A stretch of 9,365 nucleotides of DNA from an uncultured Gammaproteobacteria bacterium. Its GTDB lineage: Bacteria > Patescibacteriota > Microgenomatia > Daviesbacterales > UBA10151. Under the pieces are notes generated by a model. The model worked only from the letters and a program-made list of their open reading frames with translations. It made no database searches and was not told the origin of the DNA. The stretch lies in NCBI GenBank assembly GCA_964522265.1, contig CAZFVS010000033.1, forward strand, positions 930 through 10,294, given 5' to 3'. Position numbers and translations under genes: made by a program. Position 1 is the stretch's first letter; each line of letters begins with the position of its first letter. Shown here one piece after another: positions 1 to 9,365 of the stretch.

Positions 1-527
1 CTAAAACACGCGCACAAAAAGAAGAAACAGTCAAATTATTAGCAGACAAGCTCGCAAGAGCAAAGTCTGTAGTTTTTGCAGATTATAAAGGCCTTAACAT
101 GAGTCAGCTTTCAGACCTTCGGAATAAGCTCCGCGAGTCAGGAGCGGAATTTAACATCACCAAAAACAACCTGCTCAAACTTGCACTTGACCAATCCGAC
201 TTCCGGCATCTGGCATCTGACATCCGGACTGGTCCCACTGCAACCCTGTTTTCCTACGAAGATGAGGTTACCCCTATTAAAATACTGGTAAAAGCCTTCA
301 AAGATCATACCAAGGGTTCAGTCAAAACCGGATTTTTTGCAGGTGAGTTGATGGATGATGTTCAGATAAACAGAATTGCCCTACTTCCTTCCCAGGATGA
401 ACTGAGGGCAAAAATTGTTGGCAGTTTAGGTACACCACTTTATGGAATAGTTGGAGTTCTCCAGGCTAATTTAAGAAATTTAGTATACACACTCGATGCT
501 ATTCGAGTTTCGAAGGGGGGTGAGTAA
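1..527 (+). CDS. rplJ: 50S ribosomal protein L10 (uL10), 5'-truncated by the window edge
   Basis: The frame is open from nt 3 and reads KTRAQKEETVKLLADKLARAKSVVFADYKGLNMSQLSDLRNKLRESGAEFNITKNNLLKLAL. The listed ORF 99-527 starts only at an internal Met. The SVVFADYKGL..L..LR motif is typical of L10, and the gene sits directly upstream of rplL. Stop TAA at 525-527. Confidence 0.93.
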   Translation, partial: KTRAQKEETVKLLADKLARAKSVVFADYKGLNMSQLSDLRNKLRESGAEFNITKNNLLKLALDQSDFRHLASDIRTGPTATLFSYEDEVTPIKILVKAFKDHTKGSVKTGFFAGELMDDVQINRIALLPSQDELRAKIVGSLGTPLYGIVGVLQANLRNLVYTLDAIRVSKGGE

Positions 528-1332: not shown

Positions 1333-2253
1333 ATGCAGAAAGATAGAAACTGGTTAGAGATTCAGCCTTTTTCAAGGAAAGCTTTTTTGCAAATTACAGG
1401 CTTAGGTGTAGGTTTGCTTTTTTTACCTGAAAAAAGGCAGGATATATTGGCCGGACAGCTTGCAGATTGGGATCAGGAAACTTTAAGCCATCCTGAGAGA
1501 ATTGAGGCAACAGGACTTAAGGTTTCAAATTTGGCCATAGAAAAACTTTGTCAGCGTTTTGAGACCAGCCCGGATAGGTTTAAACATAATGTTTTTCTGC
1601 TTTGGCCTAAGGAATATACAAAAACCCTTCAGGGAACTTCCGGGTGCGTCCGGGAATTCAATAACCCTCTTCAGCTTGGCTCCGCAAGTATTGAGGGCGA
1701 CCAAATATATATCAACTTAAATAATATTTTGTATTCTTCCCCTTTTGGAAAAAACCTGCGGCCCGGACCTGCCAGTACATTATTTGAAGTTGTTTACCAT
1801 GAAGGAGGACATGTTTTACCTAAATTTTTAGATCTTGAAACACCAAGAGAACTAATGGATGCCGGAAACCAGCGGTTATCACTGGTAAAAAAACGCGGGT
1901 TAAGGTCTTACGGGATATACAATAATAACCATGCCGAAGGGAAAGCGTGCTACATCCCCTACCGTTCTGAGGCTGAAGAGGCGTTCGTGCAATTTTTAAC
2001 CATATCCGGCTTCAGGAGGCTGGGTATTTCTATCCCTGAAAATTATGCTTATAAAGACTGGGTTAAAAAATTTGAGCGGGAAATAATTTTACCCTTATTT
2101 GGTTTAAACTATGCAATCCTGGAAAAGCATTTTTTATCCTCCGACCCTGATAATTTCTTCCGGGAAATAGGTATAAGGAAAGGTTACACGGAAGAAGAAG
2201 CAAAATACAAAGGTGAAGCTTTTGTTTTTCAGGTTATCAAACAAGCTAATTGA
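1333..2253 (+). CDS. Putative exported HExxH zinc-metallopeptidase-like protein with a Tat-like (S-R-K-x-F-L-Q) N-terminus
   Basis: N-terminus FSRKAFLQITGLGVGLLFLP resembles the twin-arginine consensus S/T-R-R-x-F-L-K followed by a hydrophobic region. HEGGH at nt 1798-1812 lies in the context LFEVVYHEGGHVL. An acidic cluster EAEEAF about 55 aa downstream could supply a third ligand. I recognise no named family. Confidence 0.55.
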   Translation: MQKDRNWLEIQPFSRKAFLQITGLGVGLLFLPEKRQDILAGQLADWDQETLSHPERIEATGLKVSNLAIEKLCQRFETSPDRFKHNVFLLWPKEYTKTLQGTSGCVREFNNPLQLGSASIEGDQIYINLNNILYSSPFGKNLRPGPASTLFEVVYHEGGHVLPKFLDLETPRELMDAGNQRLSLVKKRGLRSYGIYNNNHAEGKACYIPYRSEAEEAFVQFLTISGFRRLGISIPENYAYKDWVKKFEREIILPLFGLNYAILEKHFLSSDPDNFFREIGIRKGYTEEEAKYKGEAFVFQVIKQAN

Positions 2254-2379
2254 CACAACATAATTTAATGTTTAAGCTGGAATCAGGCTATAAAACCTAT
2301 CTGCATGCTTAAAAGAACATTGAAGTTTTTTTCCTATATTTAGACAAAACCTTTAATTTTAGTCCTTTCATTTGTCAAT

Positions 2380-3453
2380 TTGGGGGTTTTAGTTTTGCTT
2401 GTTTCCGTCCTGTTTCATGGTTACTCAGTTAAAAAAATAGAAAACCAACAGCAGGTTTTAGCTGCCACATCCTGCACCAACTACTCTCCAACCTGCAATG
2501 ATAGAGCTAAAGTTCCTGATCCTAATACCTGGTGCCTTGTTTCAGAGACTGCCTGTACAAAAGGAAAGACTACTAAAACCTACCAGTGTAAAAAGATTAA
2601 AAAGACAAGTAAACAAAACTGTACAGTTGCTCCTCCAGCCCCGGATCCGGGTCATATAGAGGTAACTCTTTCTGACCAAACCTGGCTTTCTGATTCTACC
2701 AACCAGCAAGGAGCGATCCAAAAAGATAAAAATACTTTAGGAGGAAGTTTAAAGATAGCAGGGACAAATTATCCAAAAGGTATCGGTGTCTGGGCAAAGT
2801 CCCATGTTAAATATGATTTTAAAAGTAAATGCTCTTTACTTACAGGAAAAGCAGGTGTAGATGATGCAGCAGGCAGTAAAGGATCAATTAATTTTAAAGT
2901 CCAGGTAGATAATAAAAATGTGCTTTTTTCCTCAGGAGAAATGCATGGAGGCAATGCAGCGAAAGAGTTTACCTTAAATATTAGAAATATAAATGTTTTA
3001 GACTTTTATGCAGATTCAGGGCAATACACTGCATTGGATTATGGCAACTGGGTAGAATTAAAAGCCTGGTGCGACCCAACAGTATTCTCATCTCCATCAG
3101 GAGGAGGTTCAGAGGAGATCATGAAGGAGGAATCTTATCGAGTAATACTGGAATATGATCCAGTAAATAAAACGGTTGAACAAATCAAAACTAAGAAAAC
3201 ACATACTGATCTAGTAAGTATAGATAAAAAACAAAAACCAACTAAAAAAACAAACTTTTTTCAATACAAGGTTAAGGTTGTTGATTCCGAAAATTTACTG
3301 ATTTCAGATGGATGGAAGACTGTTCCTGTTAAATCAATACGGAGAAAGAATGATAAGTATAGGATTCAATTTCTAACAGATTATAAAAAAGACGCCAAGA
3401 TTACTGTTTTTAGTGAAACAGATGAAATTATCTGGGAAGGAAAGATGCTCTAA
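2380..3453 (+). CDS. Exported or anchored protein with a 6-Cys spacer, an NPCBM-type carbohydrate-binding module and a Lys-rich C-terminal beta domain
   Basis: aa ~94-231 (nt ~2659-3072): LSDQTWLS...LKIAGTNYPKGIGVWAKSHVKYDF..C..LTGKAGVDDAAGSKGSINFKVQVDNKNVLFSSGEM....AKEF.L.....VLDFYADSG....DYGNWVELKAWC. This matches the NPCBM/NEW2 pattern (LSD..W......L.IgG..Y.KGlG.ha.S...Y.l...C..F....GvDD.....GS..F.V..Dg.....SG) as I remember it. The TTG start is uncertain (see the finding on 2305-2382). Confidence 0.75.
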   Translation: MGVLVLLVSVLFHGYSVKKIENQQQVLAATSCTNYSPTCNDRAKVPDPNTWCLVSETACTKGKTTKTYQCKKIKKTSKQNCTVAPPAPDPGHIEVTLSDQTWLSDSTNQQGAIQKDKNTLGGSLKIAGTNYPKGIGVWAKSHVKYDFKSKCSLLTGKAGVDDAAGSKGSINFKVQVDNKNVLFSSGEMHGGNAAKEFTLNIRNINVLDFYADSGQYTALDYGNWVELKAWCDPTVFSSPSGGGSEEIMKEESYRVILEYDPVNKTVEQIKTKKTHTDLVSIDKKQKPTKKTNFFQYKVKVVDSENLLISDGWKTVPVKSIRRKNDKYRIQFLTDYKKDAKITVFSETDEIIWEGKML

Positions 3454-3457
3454 AAAT

Positions 3458-4936
3458 ATGCAAAGGATCAGGATTGTTATCTATTTATTTTGTTTTGTAC
3501 TTATTGGTAGTTTTCTACCAAGTATAGTAAGTGGGCAGAGCGGGCAAGAATATAAAGTGATACCGGTTTTCTTACTTGCAAATGACTATCAAGAAGTTAC
3601 TGGGATTGACTTTGATACAGAAAGTCCTAATTATTTTCGTTGGATTCAAATTGCACTTGATGAAATAAATAATTTTTACAGTACACAGACTAAAACGAAG
3701 TATAATCCAAACGGCCTTAAGTTTAATTATGATAAAACACCAAGAGTTATTAACATTCCAAATGTATCTCAAGAGGATTTAGAAGATATGGATAATATAA
3801 TCAAATTGATTAAGTCAGGGGGGATAAAAATTGATCGTTCTGGAGACTTGAAGGATGGCAAAACTATTTTTTTAATAATCCCATTCGGATCTTCAGCCAC
3901 TGATACTGCGGGAGTTAATTTTTGGTATCCCTACAAAGGCAGTAAAGACGCTTATATCTACTCAATAATTGACAGTACATTTCTTTTTGACCTTGATCCA
4001 ATAAACGCATCAGAAGACGCACAGGCATACGGACGATCTTTGACAGTAATCGGTCATGAACTAGGTCATGCATTTGGATTAATACGAGAAAGGTCGGCAA
4101 ACGGACATACCTGTTCTCAACATCGTCCAGAAATAGATTGTATTTCAGGTGCTCCCATACCTCTTCCTTCTTTTGAAGAAGGAGAAAGTGATCTAATGTT
4201 CTGGGCATTAACTAGTAAGGGCTCAATTTTTAATAAAAAACTACATAATACCTTTCATAATCCAGAGGTTCTTGTTGTCTATAGATCTCCCTTTTTGAAT
4301 CCAGATATAAAGATGGCTGGGCCAGATCTAGAACCTTTGCTTGCCCAGAGCCAATTTCCCTTGGTTGCCAACCGTAGAATTGTCTCTTTAGGAGAAGAAT
4401 TCTCTCTTACAACAGGATTTGGAACCTCAAGGTTACCTTTGTCACCTCAACCAGTAGAAATTTACACTATATATAATAATGAAGTTTTTTCTACAGAGTC
4501 ACTTGTTGACCCTTCTTCGTATTCTGTTTCATGGCAGCCCTCAATTGCAAGTGGCGTAGTGATAAAGGTTGAGAAAGTGGAGGATACTGATGAAAAATGG
4601 TTTATCAGATTTCGTGATCCAGTAAAAAATATTGGATATTTTACTGAATCAAATAACTATATTCTTGTCAAAGGAGGCAAGTCCCAAAAATATTTTGTGA
4701 CAAGCAGGTTTAATGCCACATGTGGGGATGAAAACTTACCTGTTACTGGCTCAAGAGTAACTGTTAACTACAACAAATCACTAGGTGAGAGTCGAGAAAT
4801 TCTATCCAGTTACTTAGACAAAGGCTCAACGACAATGAGTTTTTCACCTAGTAATTACGCTGCTAAACGTTTTTACTTTATAATTGGGGATTTGAAGGAT
4901 GGATCAAATTCTATTAATCCAGACATAAGATCATAA
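3458..4936 (+). CDS. Secreted zinc metalloprotease (HExxHxxG, metzincin-like) with C-terminal beta-rich domains
   Basis: The preferred start is ATG 3458, 4 nt after the upstream stop. It gives a classic signal peptide, MQRIRIVIYLFCFVLIGSFLPSIVSG/QSG. The ORF-track start at 3413 adds 15 non-signal residues and overlaps the upstream gene. Active-site motif VIGHELGHAFGL at nt ~4046-4081 (HELGH = 4055-4069). A possible Met-turn, SDLMFW, lies downstream. Confidence 0.75.
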   Translation: MQRIRIVIYLFCFVLIGSFLPSIVSGQSGQEYKVIPVFLLANDYQEVTGIDFDTESPNYFRWIQIALDEINNFYSTQTKTKYNPNGLKFNYDKTPRVINIPNVSQEDLEDMDNIIKLIKSGGIKIDRSGDLKDGKTIFLIIPFGSSATDTAGVNFWYPYKGSKDAYIYSIIDSTFLFDLDPINASEDAQAYGRSLTVIGHELGHAFGLIRERSANGHTCSQHRPEIDCISGAPIPLPSFEEGESDLMFWALTSKGSIFNKKLHNTFHNPEVLVVYRSPFLNPDIKMAGPDLEPLLAQSQFPLVANRRIVSLGEEFSLTTGFGTSRLPLSPQPVEIYTIYNNEVFSTESLVDPSSYSVSWQPSIASGVVIKVEKVEDTDEKWFIRFRDPVKNIGYFTESNNYILVKGGKSQKYFVTSRFNATCGDENLPVTGSRVTVNYNKSLGESREILSSYLDKGSTTMSFSPSNYAAKRFYFIIGDLKDGSNSINPDIRS

Positions 4937-5089
4937 GATTATCCGTTAGATATTTTTACTCTTAATAGCGACAAAGATTTAACCTTTAATATACATTATC
5001 CTGGTTGTCCGGCTGACTACATAACTTCTAAACAAATTCAATCAATTACAATAAACGGTAAGACTTTAATAAGCGCTGATACAGGTGGA

Positions 5090-5764
5090 ATGGCTCTTAA
5101 TTTGAAGGATTTTGGAGGAGTTGAGGGGCAGGCAAGACTCATAGCTGTTCCCGTTACGTTTACTTATACAGACGGCTCATCTGAACAGAAAACCATACGG
5201 TTTAATTACAATGGAGGGGGAGGTTCGGGTGGAGATGGTGGAAACTGTACTAATAGTGAGTGGAGAGATACAAATGAGTTTACTTGTACTGGTTGCGGGC
5301 AGAAGAAAACTAAACAAAGAAAATATTGTGACGGTGTAGCCACAAACGAAACCAGGCTTAAATCTTTTGAAGAAAGAGAATCAGATTGCAACACCAGGCA
5401 ATATTGCACAAGCCCCTGTAACCGGGGTACACCTTACCAGTTTTTCGATGGTAATAAATATGGTTGTCGTGATGGCGGAGCAGAGACATGTTCAAGTGGA
5501 TATTATGATATGAATAATCAATGTACGATAGATGCTGATTGCAAAAAGCTCTTTTGTAACTGTGATTATGAGGAAAATTCGGAAAATACTGAGAATTGTG
5601 AAGGAGAAAAAGTCAGGGTAAGGGTCTGTAAAGGCGGAGACCCAAGGCATGACAGGGAAAGCGGAGATGAAGGTACTAATGATAATACCAGCTCGGGCTG
5701 TGGGTTCAGGCAGGAACGTCCACCTGAGTGTAACTTAACAGACAGGTGTAATACACCGGAGTAA
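5090..5764 (+). CDS. Cys-rich (18 Cys) domain protein lacking its own signal peptide; possibly the detached C-terminus of the upstream protease
   Basis: The frame is open from 4937, in phase with 3458-4936, and is separated from it only by TAA 4934-4936. The first canonical start is ATG 5090. A GGGGSGGDGG linker is followed by 18 Cys in ~170 aa. Confidence 0.5.
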   Translation: MALNLKDFGGVEGQARLIAVPVTFTYTDGSSEQKTIRFNYNGGGGSGGDGGNCTNSEWRDTNEFTCTGCGQKKTKQRKYCDGVATNETRLKSFEERESDCNTRQYCTSPCNRGTPYQFFDGNKYGCRDGGAETCSSGYYDMNNQCTIDADCKKLFCNCDYEENSENTENCEGEKVRVRVCKGGDPRHDRESGDEGTNDNTSSGCGFRQERPPECNLTDRCNTPE

Positions 5765-5809
5765 CTCTGGTGTTTAATATGGTTAAATATATATAATACA
5801 AAAGTACAG

Positions 5810-6070
5810 ATGAGTCAGCAATATTTTAAAGAGTGGTTAAAGAGTAACTGGATATCGAGTCTTTCAATGGTAATCCTGTTAGCAGGATTGGTAACTGGAG
5901 TTTATTTAGTCCAACAAGAACAGTCTATAAGATCTAAAGCCGCAGACGAGGGGATAAACTCAGTTTTAGAGGTAACCAAATCTGATGGTGACAACTTAGA
6001 TTATATAGGATCTGATACATATAACACCGACACTTTGGATATAAAGATTAAGATTAAAACCCAGCAGTAA
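5810..6070 (+). CDS. Small N-terminally membrane-anchored protein (86 aa)
   Basis: A single hydrophobic helix, ISSLSMVILLAGLVTGVYLV, is followed by QQEQSIRSKAADEG and a short acidic/Thr-rich tail. I recognise no domain. Confidence 0.45.
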   Translation: MSQQYFKEWLKSNWISSLSMVILLAGLVTGVYLVQQEQSIRSKAADEGINSVLEVTKSDGDNLDYIGSDTYNTDTLDIKIKIKTQQ

Positions 6071-9053: not shown

Positions 9054-9061
9054 GAACTAAG

Positions 9062-9083
9062 TATAAGTCAAATTTGACTTATA
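9062..9083. promoter_or_regulatory. Perfect 22-bp palindrome, a candidate operator, 9-30 nt upstream of the GT4 start codon
   Basis: TATAAGTCAAA|TTTGACTTATA is its own reverse complement with no mismatch. It lies between repeat copy C and ATG 9053 (- strand). Confidence 0.4.
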
Positions 9084-9099
9084 AGACAAACATTTTATT

Positions 9100-9220
9100 G
9101 TTCAAACCCAACACCACAACCGTTGAGGTTGTGGATGAAGTTTTTACGAGCGAAGCGAGTACTCCGCGAAACGGAGCAACAAGAAGATACCACGGGCGTA
9201 AGCCCGTGGAAGATTCATTA
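9100..9220 (-). repeat. Four-hairpin structured intergenic element, copy C (inverted relative to copy A)
   Basis: Read on the - strand: TAATGAA, HP1 CCACGGGC-ttac-GCCCGTGG (9209-9190), TATCTTCT, HP2 CTCCG-tttcg-CGGAG (9176-9162), a degenerate HP3 ACTCGCTTCGCTCGT, HP4 CCACAACC-tcaac-GGTTGTGG (9134-9114), then TGTTGGGTTTGAA. Confidence 0.7.
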
Positions 9221-9365
9221 CTCCTTAAACCACTCTATTGTTCTTCTCAACCCTTCTTCCAGACTAACCTTAGCTTCCCAACCGGTGGCTTTTTTGAGTT
9301 TATCGCTTGAGGCAAAATTTGCGGGGATATCGCCTGCCCGCTCACCCAGATCCTGGACTTCCAGC
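9218..9365 (-). CDS. NAD-dependent epimerase/dehydratase family protein, C-terminal 48 aa only (5' end outside the window)
   Basis: The - strand frame reads LEVQDLGERAGDIPANFASSDKLKKATGWEAKVSLEEGLRRTIEWFKE*. This matches the conserved C-terminal pattern R.GD......d..K....lGW.....leeGl..t..W of GalE/RfbB-like SDR sugar epimerases/dehydratases. It is absent from the ORF track because it has no start in the window. Confidence 0.8.
   Translation of the reverse strand, partial: LEVQDLGERAGDIPANFASSDKLKKATGWEAKVSLEEGLRRTIEWFKE

What the first reader, a model, noticed from the sequence alone, without database searches (positions are those of the whole stretch)
4934..5092. A single in-frame TAA separates the secreted metalloprotease from an 18-Cys domain with no signal peptide
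ORF 3458-4936 and ORF 5090-5764 are in the same reading frame. Translating straight on from the TAA at 4934-4936 gives 51 sense codons before the first canonical start (ATG 5090), with no stop and no ATG/GTG/TTG: DYPLDIFTLNSDKDLTFNIHYPGCPADYITSKQIQSITINGKTLISADTGG. The sequence on both sides of the TAA reads like the same beta-rich repeat style. The downstream product is extremely Cys-rich, which implies an extracytoplasmic, disulfide-bonded fold, yet it has no signal peptide or anchor of its own. The simplest reading is one ancestral secreted protein of roughly 770 aa (protease + beta domains + Cys-rich tail). It may now be split by a nonsense mutation, an assembly or strain-variant error, or a leaky stop giving long and short isoforms.
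Basis: seen in the sequence. Interest (0 to 1): 0.65.

Follow-up and report, generated by a model that had tools for sequence, protein, structure and literature searches.

The report
Secreted protease gene cut by stop
The two neighbouring reading frames are pieces of one gene for a secreted multi-domain metalloprotease-like protein that a single premature TAA stop codon has cut in two; this is an ordinary nonsense-interrupted gene (or a base-call error), not two genes or a new recoding mechanism.

Summary
TAA 4934-4936 ends ORF 3458-4936. The same frame then runs through 51 sense codons to ATG 5090 and on to TAA 5762-5764.

The 153-nt "spacer" is coding sequence:
- Its codon usage matches the protease, and the other five frames are full of stops.
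- Its 51-aa translation alone hits two homologues at collinear positions (E 5e-9 and 0.002).
- The fused translation aligns in one unbroken BLASTP segment through the stop with a 792-aa Candidatus Daviesbacteria protein and a 1273-aa metagenomic protein (E about 1e-33).

The Daviesbacteria gene is an uninterrupted ORF in the same three-gene cassette (NPCBM protein, zincin, small membrane protein). In the closer homologue the stop aligns with a Tyr codon (TAT), one base from TAA. The Met of ATG 5090 aligns with Leu in both homologues, in the middle of an Ig/Rib-like beta domain. The annotated 224-aa "protein" is therefore a gene-calling remnant.

Nothing supports readthrough. TAA is the organism's normal stop, it is followed by G, no RNA structure follows it, and the stop is not conserved.

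Without reads I cannot tell a real nonsense allele from a consensus error.

In a related contig the same Cys-rich tail sits in the +1 frame behind a CCC_TGA "shifty stop".

The parts
3458..4933 (+). 5' part (codons 1-492) of the single zincin-like gene. It holds the Sec signal peptide (3458-3535), the HELGH motif (4055-4069) and the middle beta-rich region.
   Evidence: ORF and translation. Motif coordinates. Collinear homology to P0004 (query 66-703) and P0003 (query 168-585).
4934..4936 (+). Premature in-frame TAA (codon 493), followed by G. It aligns with a Tyr codon (TAT) in L083, and with no stop in L081.
4925..4940 (+). 8-nt tandem quasi-repeat ATAAGATC|ATAAGATT. The TAA lies in the second copy, and a T-to-A change at 4936 would have raised the similarity of the two copies from 6/8 to 7/8.
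   Evidence: Significance not tested; possibly coincidence.
4937..5089 (+). The 51 'spacer' codons. They are real coding sequence for the N-terminal half of an Ig/Rib-like beta domain (conserved HYPxCP and QSITING motifs).
   Evidence: Codon score and stop counts. HMMER hit query 11-99 to P0003 1180-1269, E 3e-16. The 51 aa alone against P0003, E 5e-9, and P0004, E 0.002.
4937..5212 (+). The complete Ig/Rib-like beta-sandwich domain (fused residues about 494-585), which spans ATG 5090.
   Evidence: Alignments A1 and A4. AlphaFold model with strands on both sides of Met52 (pLDDT 63). Weak RibLong, 4f98 and PKD similarities.
5090..5092 (+). ATG used by gene callers as the start of the 224-aa ORF. 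It is an internal codon of the beta domain and is Leu (TTA/TTG) in both homologues. The GGTGGA directly before it is the Gly-Gly codon pair and abuts the ATG.
5213..5242 (+). Gly-rich linker GGGGSGGDGG between the beta domain and the tail. P0003 has GGSSGGG and P0004 has SGSGTSG at the same place.
5243..5764 (+). Cys-rich C-terminal tail (18 Cys) and the natural TAA stop (5762-5764).
   Evidence: Tails of similar length and Cys count in P0004 (18) and L083 (19); the window tail is only marginally similar in sequence (E 0.047).
2380..3453 (+). Upstream cassette partner, an NPCBM/NEW2-domain protein. Its stop lies 4 nt before ATG 3458.
   Evidence: Pfam PF08305, E 2e-30. 52% identical to the L083 neighbour and 24% to the L081 neighbour.
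5810..6070 (+). Downstream cassette partner, an 86-aa protein with one hydrophobic helix and a conserved C-terminus (NTDTLDIKIKIK).
   Evidence: 51% identical to the 83-aa protein of L083 and 40% to the 93-aa protein of L081.

Best explanation
Positions 3458-5764 are one gene. It encodes a roughly 768-aa secreted protein made of a Sec signal peptide, a zincin-like HEXXH domain, beta-rich middle domains, an Ig/Rib-like beta-sandwich, a Gly linker and a disulfide-rich tail of about 175 aa. The gene is the middle member of a three-gene cassette: NPCBM protein, zincin, small membrane protein.

In this genome a single base substitution, most simply TAT (Tyr) to TAA at codon 493, created a premature stop in the linker just before the Ig/Rib-like domain. 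Translation therefore ends after 492 residues. The result is a secreted protease body that lacks the last beta domain and the Cys-rich tail.

The 830 nt downstream are an untranslated remnant. They are still intact, which means the lesion is recent. The '224-aa protein' starting at ATG 5090 is a product of ORF calling, not a gene.

Shown: single-gene ancestry, coding nature of the spacer, an intact syntenic orthologue, and a non-conserved Met at 5090. Inferred: that the TAA is real in the cells, that it is recent, and that the truncated product is still made and exported.
For: - One BLASTP segment runs through the stop with P0004 (query 66-703, E 1e-33) and with P0003 (query 168-585, E 1e-32).
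- An exhaustive HMMER search with 4937-5761 found P0003 and P0004, with matches starting inside the spacer at residues 11-12.
- The spacer alone hits both homologues collinearly.
- The spacer is codon-biased like the protease, and its other frames are full of stops.
- L081 and L082 carry the orthologue as one 792-aa ORF between an NPCBM gene and a small gene, the same cassette as in the window.
- The stop aligns with TAT in L083, and Met5090 aligns with Leu TTA/TTG in the homologues.
- 275 downstream codons are still open (P about 6e-9) and carry 18 Cys, the same count as the intact P0004 tail.
- TAA is the ordinary stop here, ending 8 of the 11 main ORFs.
- The spacer contains no promoter-like or terminator-like site on the + strand.
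Against: - No reads are available and no near-identical second assembly exists, so a consensus error or a minority strain variant cannot be excluded.
- Only three loci of this family are known, so 'ancestrally fused' rests on two comparators.
- The intact downstream frame is also what continued selection would produce, whether through readthrough or separate expression.
- In L083 the tail is likewise detached from the body. Two detached tails out of three could hint at something non-random.
Confidence: 0.7

Rival explanations
1. The TAA is not in the cells, or is only in a minor strain. It would then be a base-call or assembly consensus error, or a polymorphism picked by the assembler, and the real gene is an intact 768-aa ORF.
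For: - A single third-position base separates TAA from the Tyr codon TAT seen in L083.
- The downstream 275 codons show no decay at all.
- The sequence is known from one 10.3-kb contig of one assembly.
- The TAA lies in a local 8-nt tandem quasi-repeat.
Against: - From general knowledge, substitution errors in short-read consensus sequence are far rarer than real nonsense alleles.
- No intact near-identical protein turned up in the exhaustive search of 1.84 billion cluster representatives. The only 100% hit is the 224-aa fragment.
- This cannot be tested directly here.
Confidence: 0.13
2. The stop is leaky or programmed. Most ribosomes stop at TAA and make the 492-aa form, while a fraction read through and make the 768-aa form carrying the Rib-like domain and the Cys-rich tail.
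For: - The downstream frame is fully preserved.
- The stop falls between domains, so both products would be made of whole domains.
- In L083 the tail is also reached only by recoding-like means, a CCC_TGA with the tail in the +1 frame. CCC_UGA is a documented shifty stop (PMC3082878).
Against: - From general knowledge, UAA is read by both release factors, is the least leaky stop in bacteria, and UAA-G is a strong terminator context.
- The stop is not conserved: it is Tyr in L083 and absent in L081.
- The 130 nt after the stop fold no better than shuffled sequence (z +0.95).
- No tRNA gene lies in the window.
- The lesions in the window and in L083 differ in both kind and position, so no shared signal exists.
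Confidence: 0.05
3. This is a true gene fission. After the nonsense mutation, the downstream part became an independent gene expressed from ATG 5090.
For: - An ATG exists only in this genome, at a position where the homologues have Leu.
- It is preceded by a purine-rich GGTGGA.
- NCBI annotation lists the 224-aa product as a protein.
Against: - The ATG lies in the middle of a conserved beta domain, so the product would start with half a fold.
- The product has no signal peptide although it carries 18 Cys.
- GGTGGA abuts the ATG with 0-1 nt of spacing, and most genes in this window show no Shine-Dalgarno sequence anyway.
- No promoter-like site lies in the spacer.
Confidence: 0.05
4. TAA is a sense codon in this organism (an alternative genetic code).
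For: None beyond the open frame itself.
Against: - Eight of the 11 main ORFs in the window end in TAA.
- Among them, rplJ aligns with its L001 homologue to within one residue of its end (residues 1-141 of 142).
- No suppressor tRNA lies in the window.
- The papers listed by one search on in-frame stop codons in Candidate Phyla Radiation bacteria include no title or abstract on TAA reassignment (abstracts only). From my own knowledge, the stop reassignment known in this group is UGA.
Confidence: 0.01

Closest known systems
Hypothetical protein MBI2593366.1 (HYW44_01875), Candidatus Daviesbacteria, 792 aa (P0004; loci L081 and L082)
   Same: It has the same architecture: signal peptide, HELGH domain, beta domains, HYPxCP/DGSxEQ Ig-like domain, Gly/Ser linker and an 18-Cys tail. 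It also sits in the same cassette, with an NPCBM gene upstream and a small membrane protein downstream. The alignment to the window's fused translation covers residues 66-703.
   Different: It is uninterrupted. Identity is only 25%. Its tail is built of clear YCDxGxxIHKxGGY repeats that the window's tail has largely lost.
P0003 with the following ORF on Logan contig SRR22388241_374380 (L083)
   Same: It is the closest relative of the junction domain (45% identity, E 3e-16). The NPCBM neighbour is 52% identical and the small protein 51% identical. Its Cys-rich tail is also separated from the body.
   Different: It has an extra N-terminal region of about 780 aa, and its motif is HQLGH rather than HELGH. 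The tail is cut off by a +1 frame change at CCC_TGA after the linker, not by an in-frame TAA before the Ig-like domain.
Nonsense-interrupted genes (pseudogenes or truncated alleles) annotated as two adjacent CDS
   Same: Two same-frame ORFs are separated by one stop. The 'intergenic' stretch is homologous to the middle of an intact orthologue, and the second ORF starts at a non-conserved internal Met.
   Different: Nothing essential. The lesion is young, with no further decay downstream.
Secreted multi-domain zinc metalloproteases with C-terminal Ig-like (PKD) modules, such as Vibrio cholerae PrtV and Clostridium histolyticum ColG/ColH
   Same: The general plan is shared: a signal peptide, an HEXXH catalytic domain and C-terminal beta-sandwich modules. 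The PKD domains of PrtV and ColG/ColH are among the top Foldseek matches of the junction-domain model.
   Different: Those matches are not significant (E at least 0.046). There is no sequence homology and no Pfam peptidase family above threshold. These proteases also lack the Cys-rich tail.
CCC_UGA 'shifty stop' +1 frameshifting (E. coli pheL, Listeria phage tail genes; PMC3082878)
   Same: This applies only to the related locus L083. There the 0-frame ends CCC TGA, and the +1 frame continues with the homologous tail.
   Different: It does not apply to the window, where the frame does not change. In L083 a simple 1-nt insertion (CC to CCC) explains the same sequence.

Membership tests
Single gene interrupted by a premature stop (nonsense allele or pseudogene) | Both ORFs align collinearly and in the same frame to one protein in relatives. 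| tested here: met
   A single HSP runs through the stop with P0004 (E 1e-33) and with P0003 (E 1e-32).
Single gene interrupted by a premature stop (nonsense allele or pseudogene) | The stretch between the ORFs is itself homologous coding sequence. | tested here: met
   The 51-aa spacer peptide alone hits P0003 (E 5e-9) and P0004 (E 0.002) at collinear positions. Its codon score is +0.135 bit/codon against +0.141 for the protease.
Single gene interrupted by a premature stop (nonsense allele or pseudogene) | The syntenic orthologue is uninterrupted. | tested here: met
   L081 and L082 carry a 792-aa ORF between an NPCBM gene and a small gene.
Single gene interrupted by a premature stop (nonsense allele or pseudogene) | The stop is present in the organism's DNA, supported by reads. 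| not testable with these tools
   No reads are available, and the window's own contig cannot be retrieved.
Programmed stop-codon readthrough | A leaky stop codon and context. | tested here: not met
   The stop is TAA followed by G. From general knowledge, this is the tightest class of bacterial terminators.
Programmed stop-codon readthrough | The stop is conserved at the same position in orthologues. | tested here: not met
   The position is TAT (Tyr) in L083, and L081 has no stop there.
Programmed stop-codon readthrough | A stimulatory RNA structure lies 3' of the stop. | tested here: not met
   Positions 4925-5060 fold at -11.6 kcal/mol, z +0.95 against shuffles. There is no Rfam hit.
Programmed stop-codon readthrough | An extended protein is detected. 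| not testable with these tools
   This needs proteomics or a reporter assay.
Stop-codon reassignment (alternative genetic code) | The codon is not used as a terminator in ordinary genes. | tested here: not met
   8 of the 11 main ORFs end in TAA.
Independent gene for a Cys-rich protein (ORF 5090-5764) | It has its own conserved start at a domain boundary, and an export signal. | tested here: not met
   The Met aligns with Leu in both homologues. It lies inside the beta domain. By inspection there is no hydrophobic N-terminus.
Zincin (HEXXH) metallopeptidase | An HEXXH zinc-binding and catalytic motif. | tested here: met
   HELGH lies at residues 200-204. H200 and H204 are invariant in the three sequences, with Glu replaced by Gln in P0003.
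Zincin (HEXXH) metallopeptidase | A match to a curated peptidase family above its threshold. | tested here: not met
   Pfam has no hit for the window protein. P0004 matches Reprolysin_5 at E 0.0027 and 18 bits, against a cut-off of 27. The PDB profile search gave archaemetzincin at E 0.12. NCBIfam gave nothing relevant.
Metzincin clan | The extended motif HEXXHXXGXXH/D. | tested here: not met
   The window reads HELGHAFGLIR. The third-ligand position is R, Y or E in the three sequences. An invariant His follows 13 residues after the second His instead.
Rib / Ig-like beta-sandwich domain (junction domain 4937-5212) | A match to a Rib, PKD or Ig domain model or structure. | tested here: inconclusive
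   Pfam RibLong gave E 0.011, below its cut-off, on the homologous stretch of P0003. PDB 4f98 gave E 0.043. The best Foldseek hits were the PrtV PKD domain (E 0.046) and Rib Long (E 0.18), using a model of pLDDT 63.

The most novel reading that the evidence does not exclude
In this small, uncharacterised family of secreted zincin-like proteins from Patescibacteria-type genomes, attachment of the disulfide-rich C-terminal tail might be controlled at translation. Low-level recoding would give a tail-less main product and a minor full-length product. The recoding event would be UAA readthrough in the window and a +1 slip at the CCC_UGA shifty stop in L083. In two of the three known loci the tail is detached while its frame is fully preserved.
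Probability: 0.05. Interest if true: 0.6.

Novelty: new member of a known kind. Interest (0 to 1): 0.25.

Why it matters
The main value is for annotation. The deposited record splits one gene into a 492-aa and a 224-aa 'protein'. The second of these begins in mid-domain and should be flagged as a fragment. Proteins like this pollute databases with orphan 'Cys-rich proteins'.

The work also defines a rare three-gene cassette: an NPCBM carbohydrate-binding protein, a secreted zincin with an Ig-like domain and a Cys-rich tail, and a small membrane protein. It has been seen in only three metagenomic loci, one of them from Candidatus Daviesbacteria. It lies in a variable island that the closest available genome lacks. 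That fits an accessory cell-surface or host-interaction module that is gained, lost and inactivated quickly.

If the tail-less forms were produced deliberately, the family would be a small new example of recoding-controlled isoforms. The present evidence does not favour this.

Tried and rejected
Searches that found nothing useful:
- The word-indexed protein search with the fused protein, with alignment A1 and with the NPCBM alignment returned only the window's own proteins, plus the Daviesbacteria NPCBM protein and three unrelated NPCBM-domain proteins. It missed P0002, P0003 and P0004, so it is not evidence of absence.
- The search for related loci with the tail in the genome and metagenome collections, and with alignment A2 in the metagenome and viral collections, found nothing.
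- Look-ups of the window's own proteins gave 'not on record', so the source assembly and its reads could not be reached.
- Pfam and NCBIfam on both halves gave no family.

Structure attempts:
- AlphaFold on the 768-aa fused protein with a 3-sequence alignment was unusable (pLDDT 36).
- The junction-domain model (pLDDT 63) gave no significant Foldseek match.

Ideas rejected:
- Internal repeats across the stop: none found.
- A readthrough-stimulating structure, and a promoter or terminator in the spacer: none found.
- TAA reassignment, because of stop usage in the window.
- An 8-nt duplication as the cause of the lesion. Removing one copy would break the frame and the homology, so at most a templated point change is possible.
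Full report
**1. The observation.** The window (9365 nt, 38.6% G+C) carries a partial rplJ and rplL at its 5' end. A block of secreted-protein genes follows, then an HTH regulator and cell-envelope sugar genes on the minus strand.

ORF 3458-4936 (492 aa from the ATG; a GTG at 3413 is also open) ends in TAA at 4934-4936. It reaches ATG 5090 and runs on to TAA 5762-5764. There is no in-frame ATG, GTG or TTG in between. The 224-aa ORF has 18 Cys and no hydrophobic N-terminus. The 492-aa ORF has a textbook Sec signal and an HELGH motif.

**2. Is the 153-nt 'spacer' coding?** Base composition alone gives P about 0.03 for 51 open codons and about 6e-9 for the whole 275-codon stretch 4937-5761.

I trained a codon-usage log-likelihood on the other genes of the window. 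The spacer scores +0.135 bit/codon in frame, the same as the protease (+0.141). Its other five frames score -0.48 to -1.0 and contain 4-7 stops each. Genuine intergenic regions of the window score negative in nearly all frames. G+C at the three codon positions (0.37/0.39/0.20) follows the pattern of the flanking gene.

The decisive evidence is homology. An exhaustive HMMER search of 1.84 billion cluster representatives with 4937-5761 found, apart from the window's own 224-aa fragment, two relevant proteins:
- a 1273-aa protein (P0003, E 3e-16), whose match begins at residue 11 of the spacer;
- a 792-aa protein (P0004, E 6e-11), whose match begins at residue 12 of the spacer.

The 51-aa spacer peptide on its own hits P0003 (46% identity, E 5e-9) and P0004 (E 0.002) at the collinear place.

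**3. One gene, not two.** I replaced the stop by X and compared the 768-aa fused translation with both homologues. It aligns in one uninterrupted BLASTP segment with P0004 over residues 66-703 (E 1e-33) and with P0003 over residues 168-585 (E 1e-32). In both cases the alignment runs straight through position 493 (multiple alignment).

P0004 is MBI2593366.1, a hypothetical protein of Candidatus Daviesbacteria. On its contig, and on a second one, it is a single 792-aa ORF. It is flanked upstream by an NPCBM-domain gene and downstream by a 93-aa gene. The window has the same arrangement: NPCBM gene 2380-3453, zincin, and an 86-aa gene at 5810-6070. The neighbours are homologous. P0004 is therefore a syntenic orthologue with the fused architecture.

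In L083, the locus of P0003, the codon aligned with the window's TAA is TAT (Tyr), one third-position transversion away. The Met codon at 5090 aligns with Leu (TTA/TTG) in both homologues.

The segment from about 4937 to 5212 forms one conserved domain of about 90 aa (HYPxCP ... QSITING ... PVTxxYxDGSxEQK). Its similarities to known folds are weak and sub-threshold:
- Long-Rib in Pfam (E 0.011);
- PDB 4f98 (E 0.043);
- PKD and Rib structures by Foldseek (best E 0.046).

A moderate-confidence AlphaFold model (pLDDT 63) puts beta strands on both sides of the Met. ATG 5090 thus lies in the middle of a fold. The GGTGGA in front of it is just the Gly-Gly codon pair and abuts the ATG. Genes in this window mostly lack Shine-Dalgarno sequences anyway. 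The 224-aa 'protein' is a gene-calling remnant.

**4. What caused the split, and what follows from it.** I tested each mechanism by which the stop could be 'read'.

- *Reassignment of TAA is excluded.* Eight of the 11 main ORFs end in TAA, and there is no tRNA gene in the window.
- *Programmed readthrough is not supported.* The stop is UAA followed by G, the tightest terminator class in bacteria (general knowledge). It is not conserved in either homologue. The downstream RNA folds no better than shuffled sequence (z +0.95), and Rfam finds nothing.
- *A second promoter or terminator in the spacer is not seen*.

What remains is a plain premature stop. It truncates the protein at a domain boundary. 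This leaves the signal peptide, HEXXH domain and middle beta region, and removes the Ig/Rib-like domain, the Gly linker and the Cys-rich tail.

The downstream 275 codons have acquired no further stop or frameshift. They keep 18 Cys, against 18 and 19 in the two homologous tails. So either the lesion is recent or it is not real.

I cannot separate a genuine nonsense allele from a consensus error. The reads cannot be reached, and the window's contig is the only known copy. On base rates (general knowledge: substitution errors in assembled consensus are much rarer than real inactivating alleles) I put about 0.7 on a real allele and about 0.13 on an artefact or minor variant.

One curiosity: the TAA sits in an 8-nt tandem quasi-repeat, ATAAGATC|ATAAGATT, at 4925-4940. 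I did not test its significance.

**5. Context.** The closest genome found (L001; rplL 81%, HTH 97%, GT4 60% identical) has rplJ-rplL-[one unrelated minus-strand gene]-HTH-cupin PGI-WecG-GT4. It lacks the whole 4.7-kb block 1333-6070. The cassette also sits in different surroundings in L081 and L083. It therefore belongs to a variable accessory island, where gene inactivation is unsurprising.

The family is very rare and un-annotated:
- no Pfam or NCBIfam model matches;
- the HEXXH domain lacks the metzincin extension;
- no further members appeared in genome, metagenome or viral scans.

**6. A side observation that keeps a small door open.** In L083 the 1273-aa ORF stops right after the Gly linker at ...AGG CCC TGA TGA. 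The homologous Cys-rich tail (208-aa ORF) follows in the +1 frame, which is open from 5755. A +1 slip on CCC_U would give ...GGGSQRP-DDLTYCDNG..., a contiguous protein like P0004.

CCC_UGA is a documented shift-prone 'shifty stop', usually at most 2% efficient, and is used for expression in some phage tail genes (PMC3082878). A 1-nt insertion (CC to CCC), real or an assembly error, explains the sequence equally well.

So in two of three loci the tail is detached, but by different lesions at different places. That argues for independent inactivation or error rather than a shared recoding signal. I rate the recoding reading at about 5%.

**7. Verdict.** The feature is an ordinary nonsense-interrupted gene, or a sequence error, in an otherwise uncharacterised accessory gene family. 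Interest is low to moderate, and rests mainly on annotation and on the rare cassette.

Noticed in passing
L083:5755-5810: In the related contig the zincin ORF ends ...CAG AGG CCC TGA TGA, and the homologous Cys-rich tail continues in the +1 frame. CCC_UGA is a known +1 'shifty stop' (PMC3082878). This could be a programmed frameshift, a 1-nt insertion or an assembly error.
   Followed up: partly
window 1333-6070, compared with L001:10408-11479: The whole 4.7-kb block of secreted-protein genes (HEGGH protein, NPCBM protein, zincin, small membrane protein) is absent from the closest genome found. That genome has one unrelated 184-aa minus-strand gene between rplL and the 97%-identical HTH gene. 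The block is therefore a variable accessory island.
   Followed up: partly
window 4925-4940: An 8-nt tandem quasi-repeat, ATAAGATC|ATAAGATT, contains the premature TAA. The T-to-A change that makes the stop also makes the two copies more alike. This could be a templated mutation or a coincidence.
   Followed up: no
P0003 residues about 898-902 (L083): The homologous zinc-binding motif reads HQLGH instead of HELGH, so the catalytic Glu is replaced by Gln. That copy may be catalytically dead. P0003 has a second HEXXH (HEIIH) in its long N-terminal extension.
   Followed up: no
window 1333-2253: A 306-aa ORF with a hydrophobic N-terminal segment and an HEGGH motif. It matches no Pfam or NCBIfam family and has no counterpart in L081 or L083. 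It may be a second orphan zincin-like secreted protein in the island.
   Followed up: no
window 5810-6070: The small single-helix protein of the cassette has a strikingly conserved C-terminus: NTDTLDIKIKIK is identical in the L083 homologue, although overall identity is only 51%.
   Followed up: no
window 1-527 and 1132-1333: rplJ runs off the 5' end of the window; the listed ATG at 99 is internal when compared with L001. rplL is not followed by rpoB, and no L10-leader or other Rfam family was found anywhere in the window.
   Followed up: no
window 9054-9365: The 3' end of the window is relatively G+C-rich (0.455) and holds only a 78-aa TTG ORF. There is no Rfam or tRNA hit. It may be the start of a gene that runs off the window.
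   Followed up: no
tool behaviour: The word-indexed protein search failed to return P0002, P0003 and P0004, and the L083 NPCBM protein, even when they were part of the query. Its negative results for this family should not be read as absence.
   Followed up: yes
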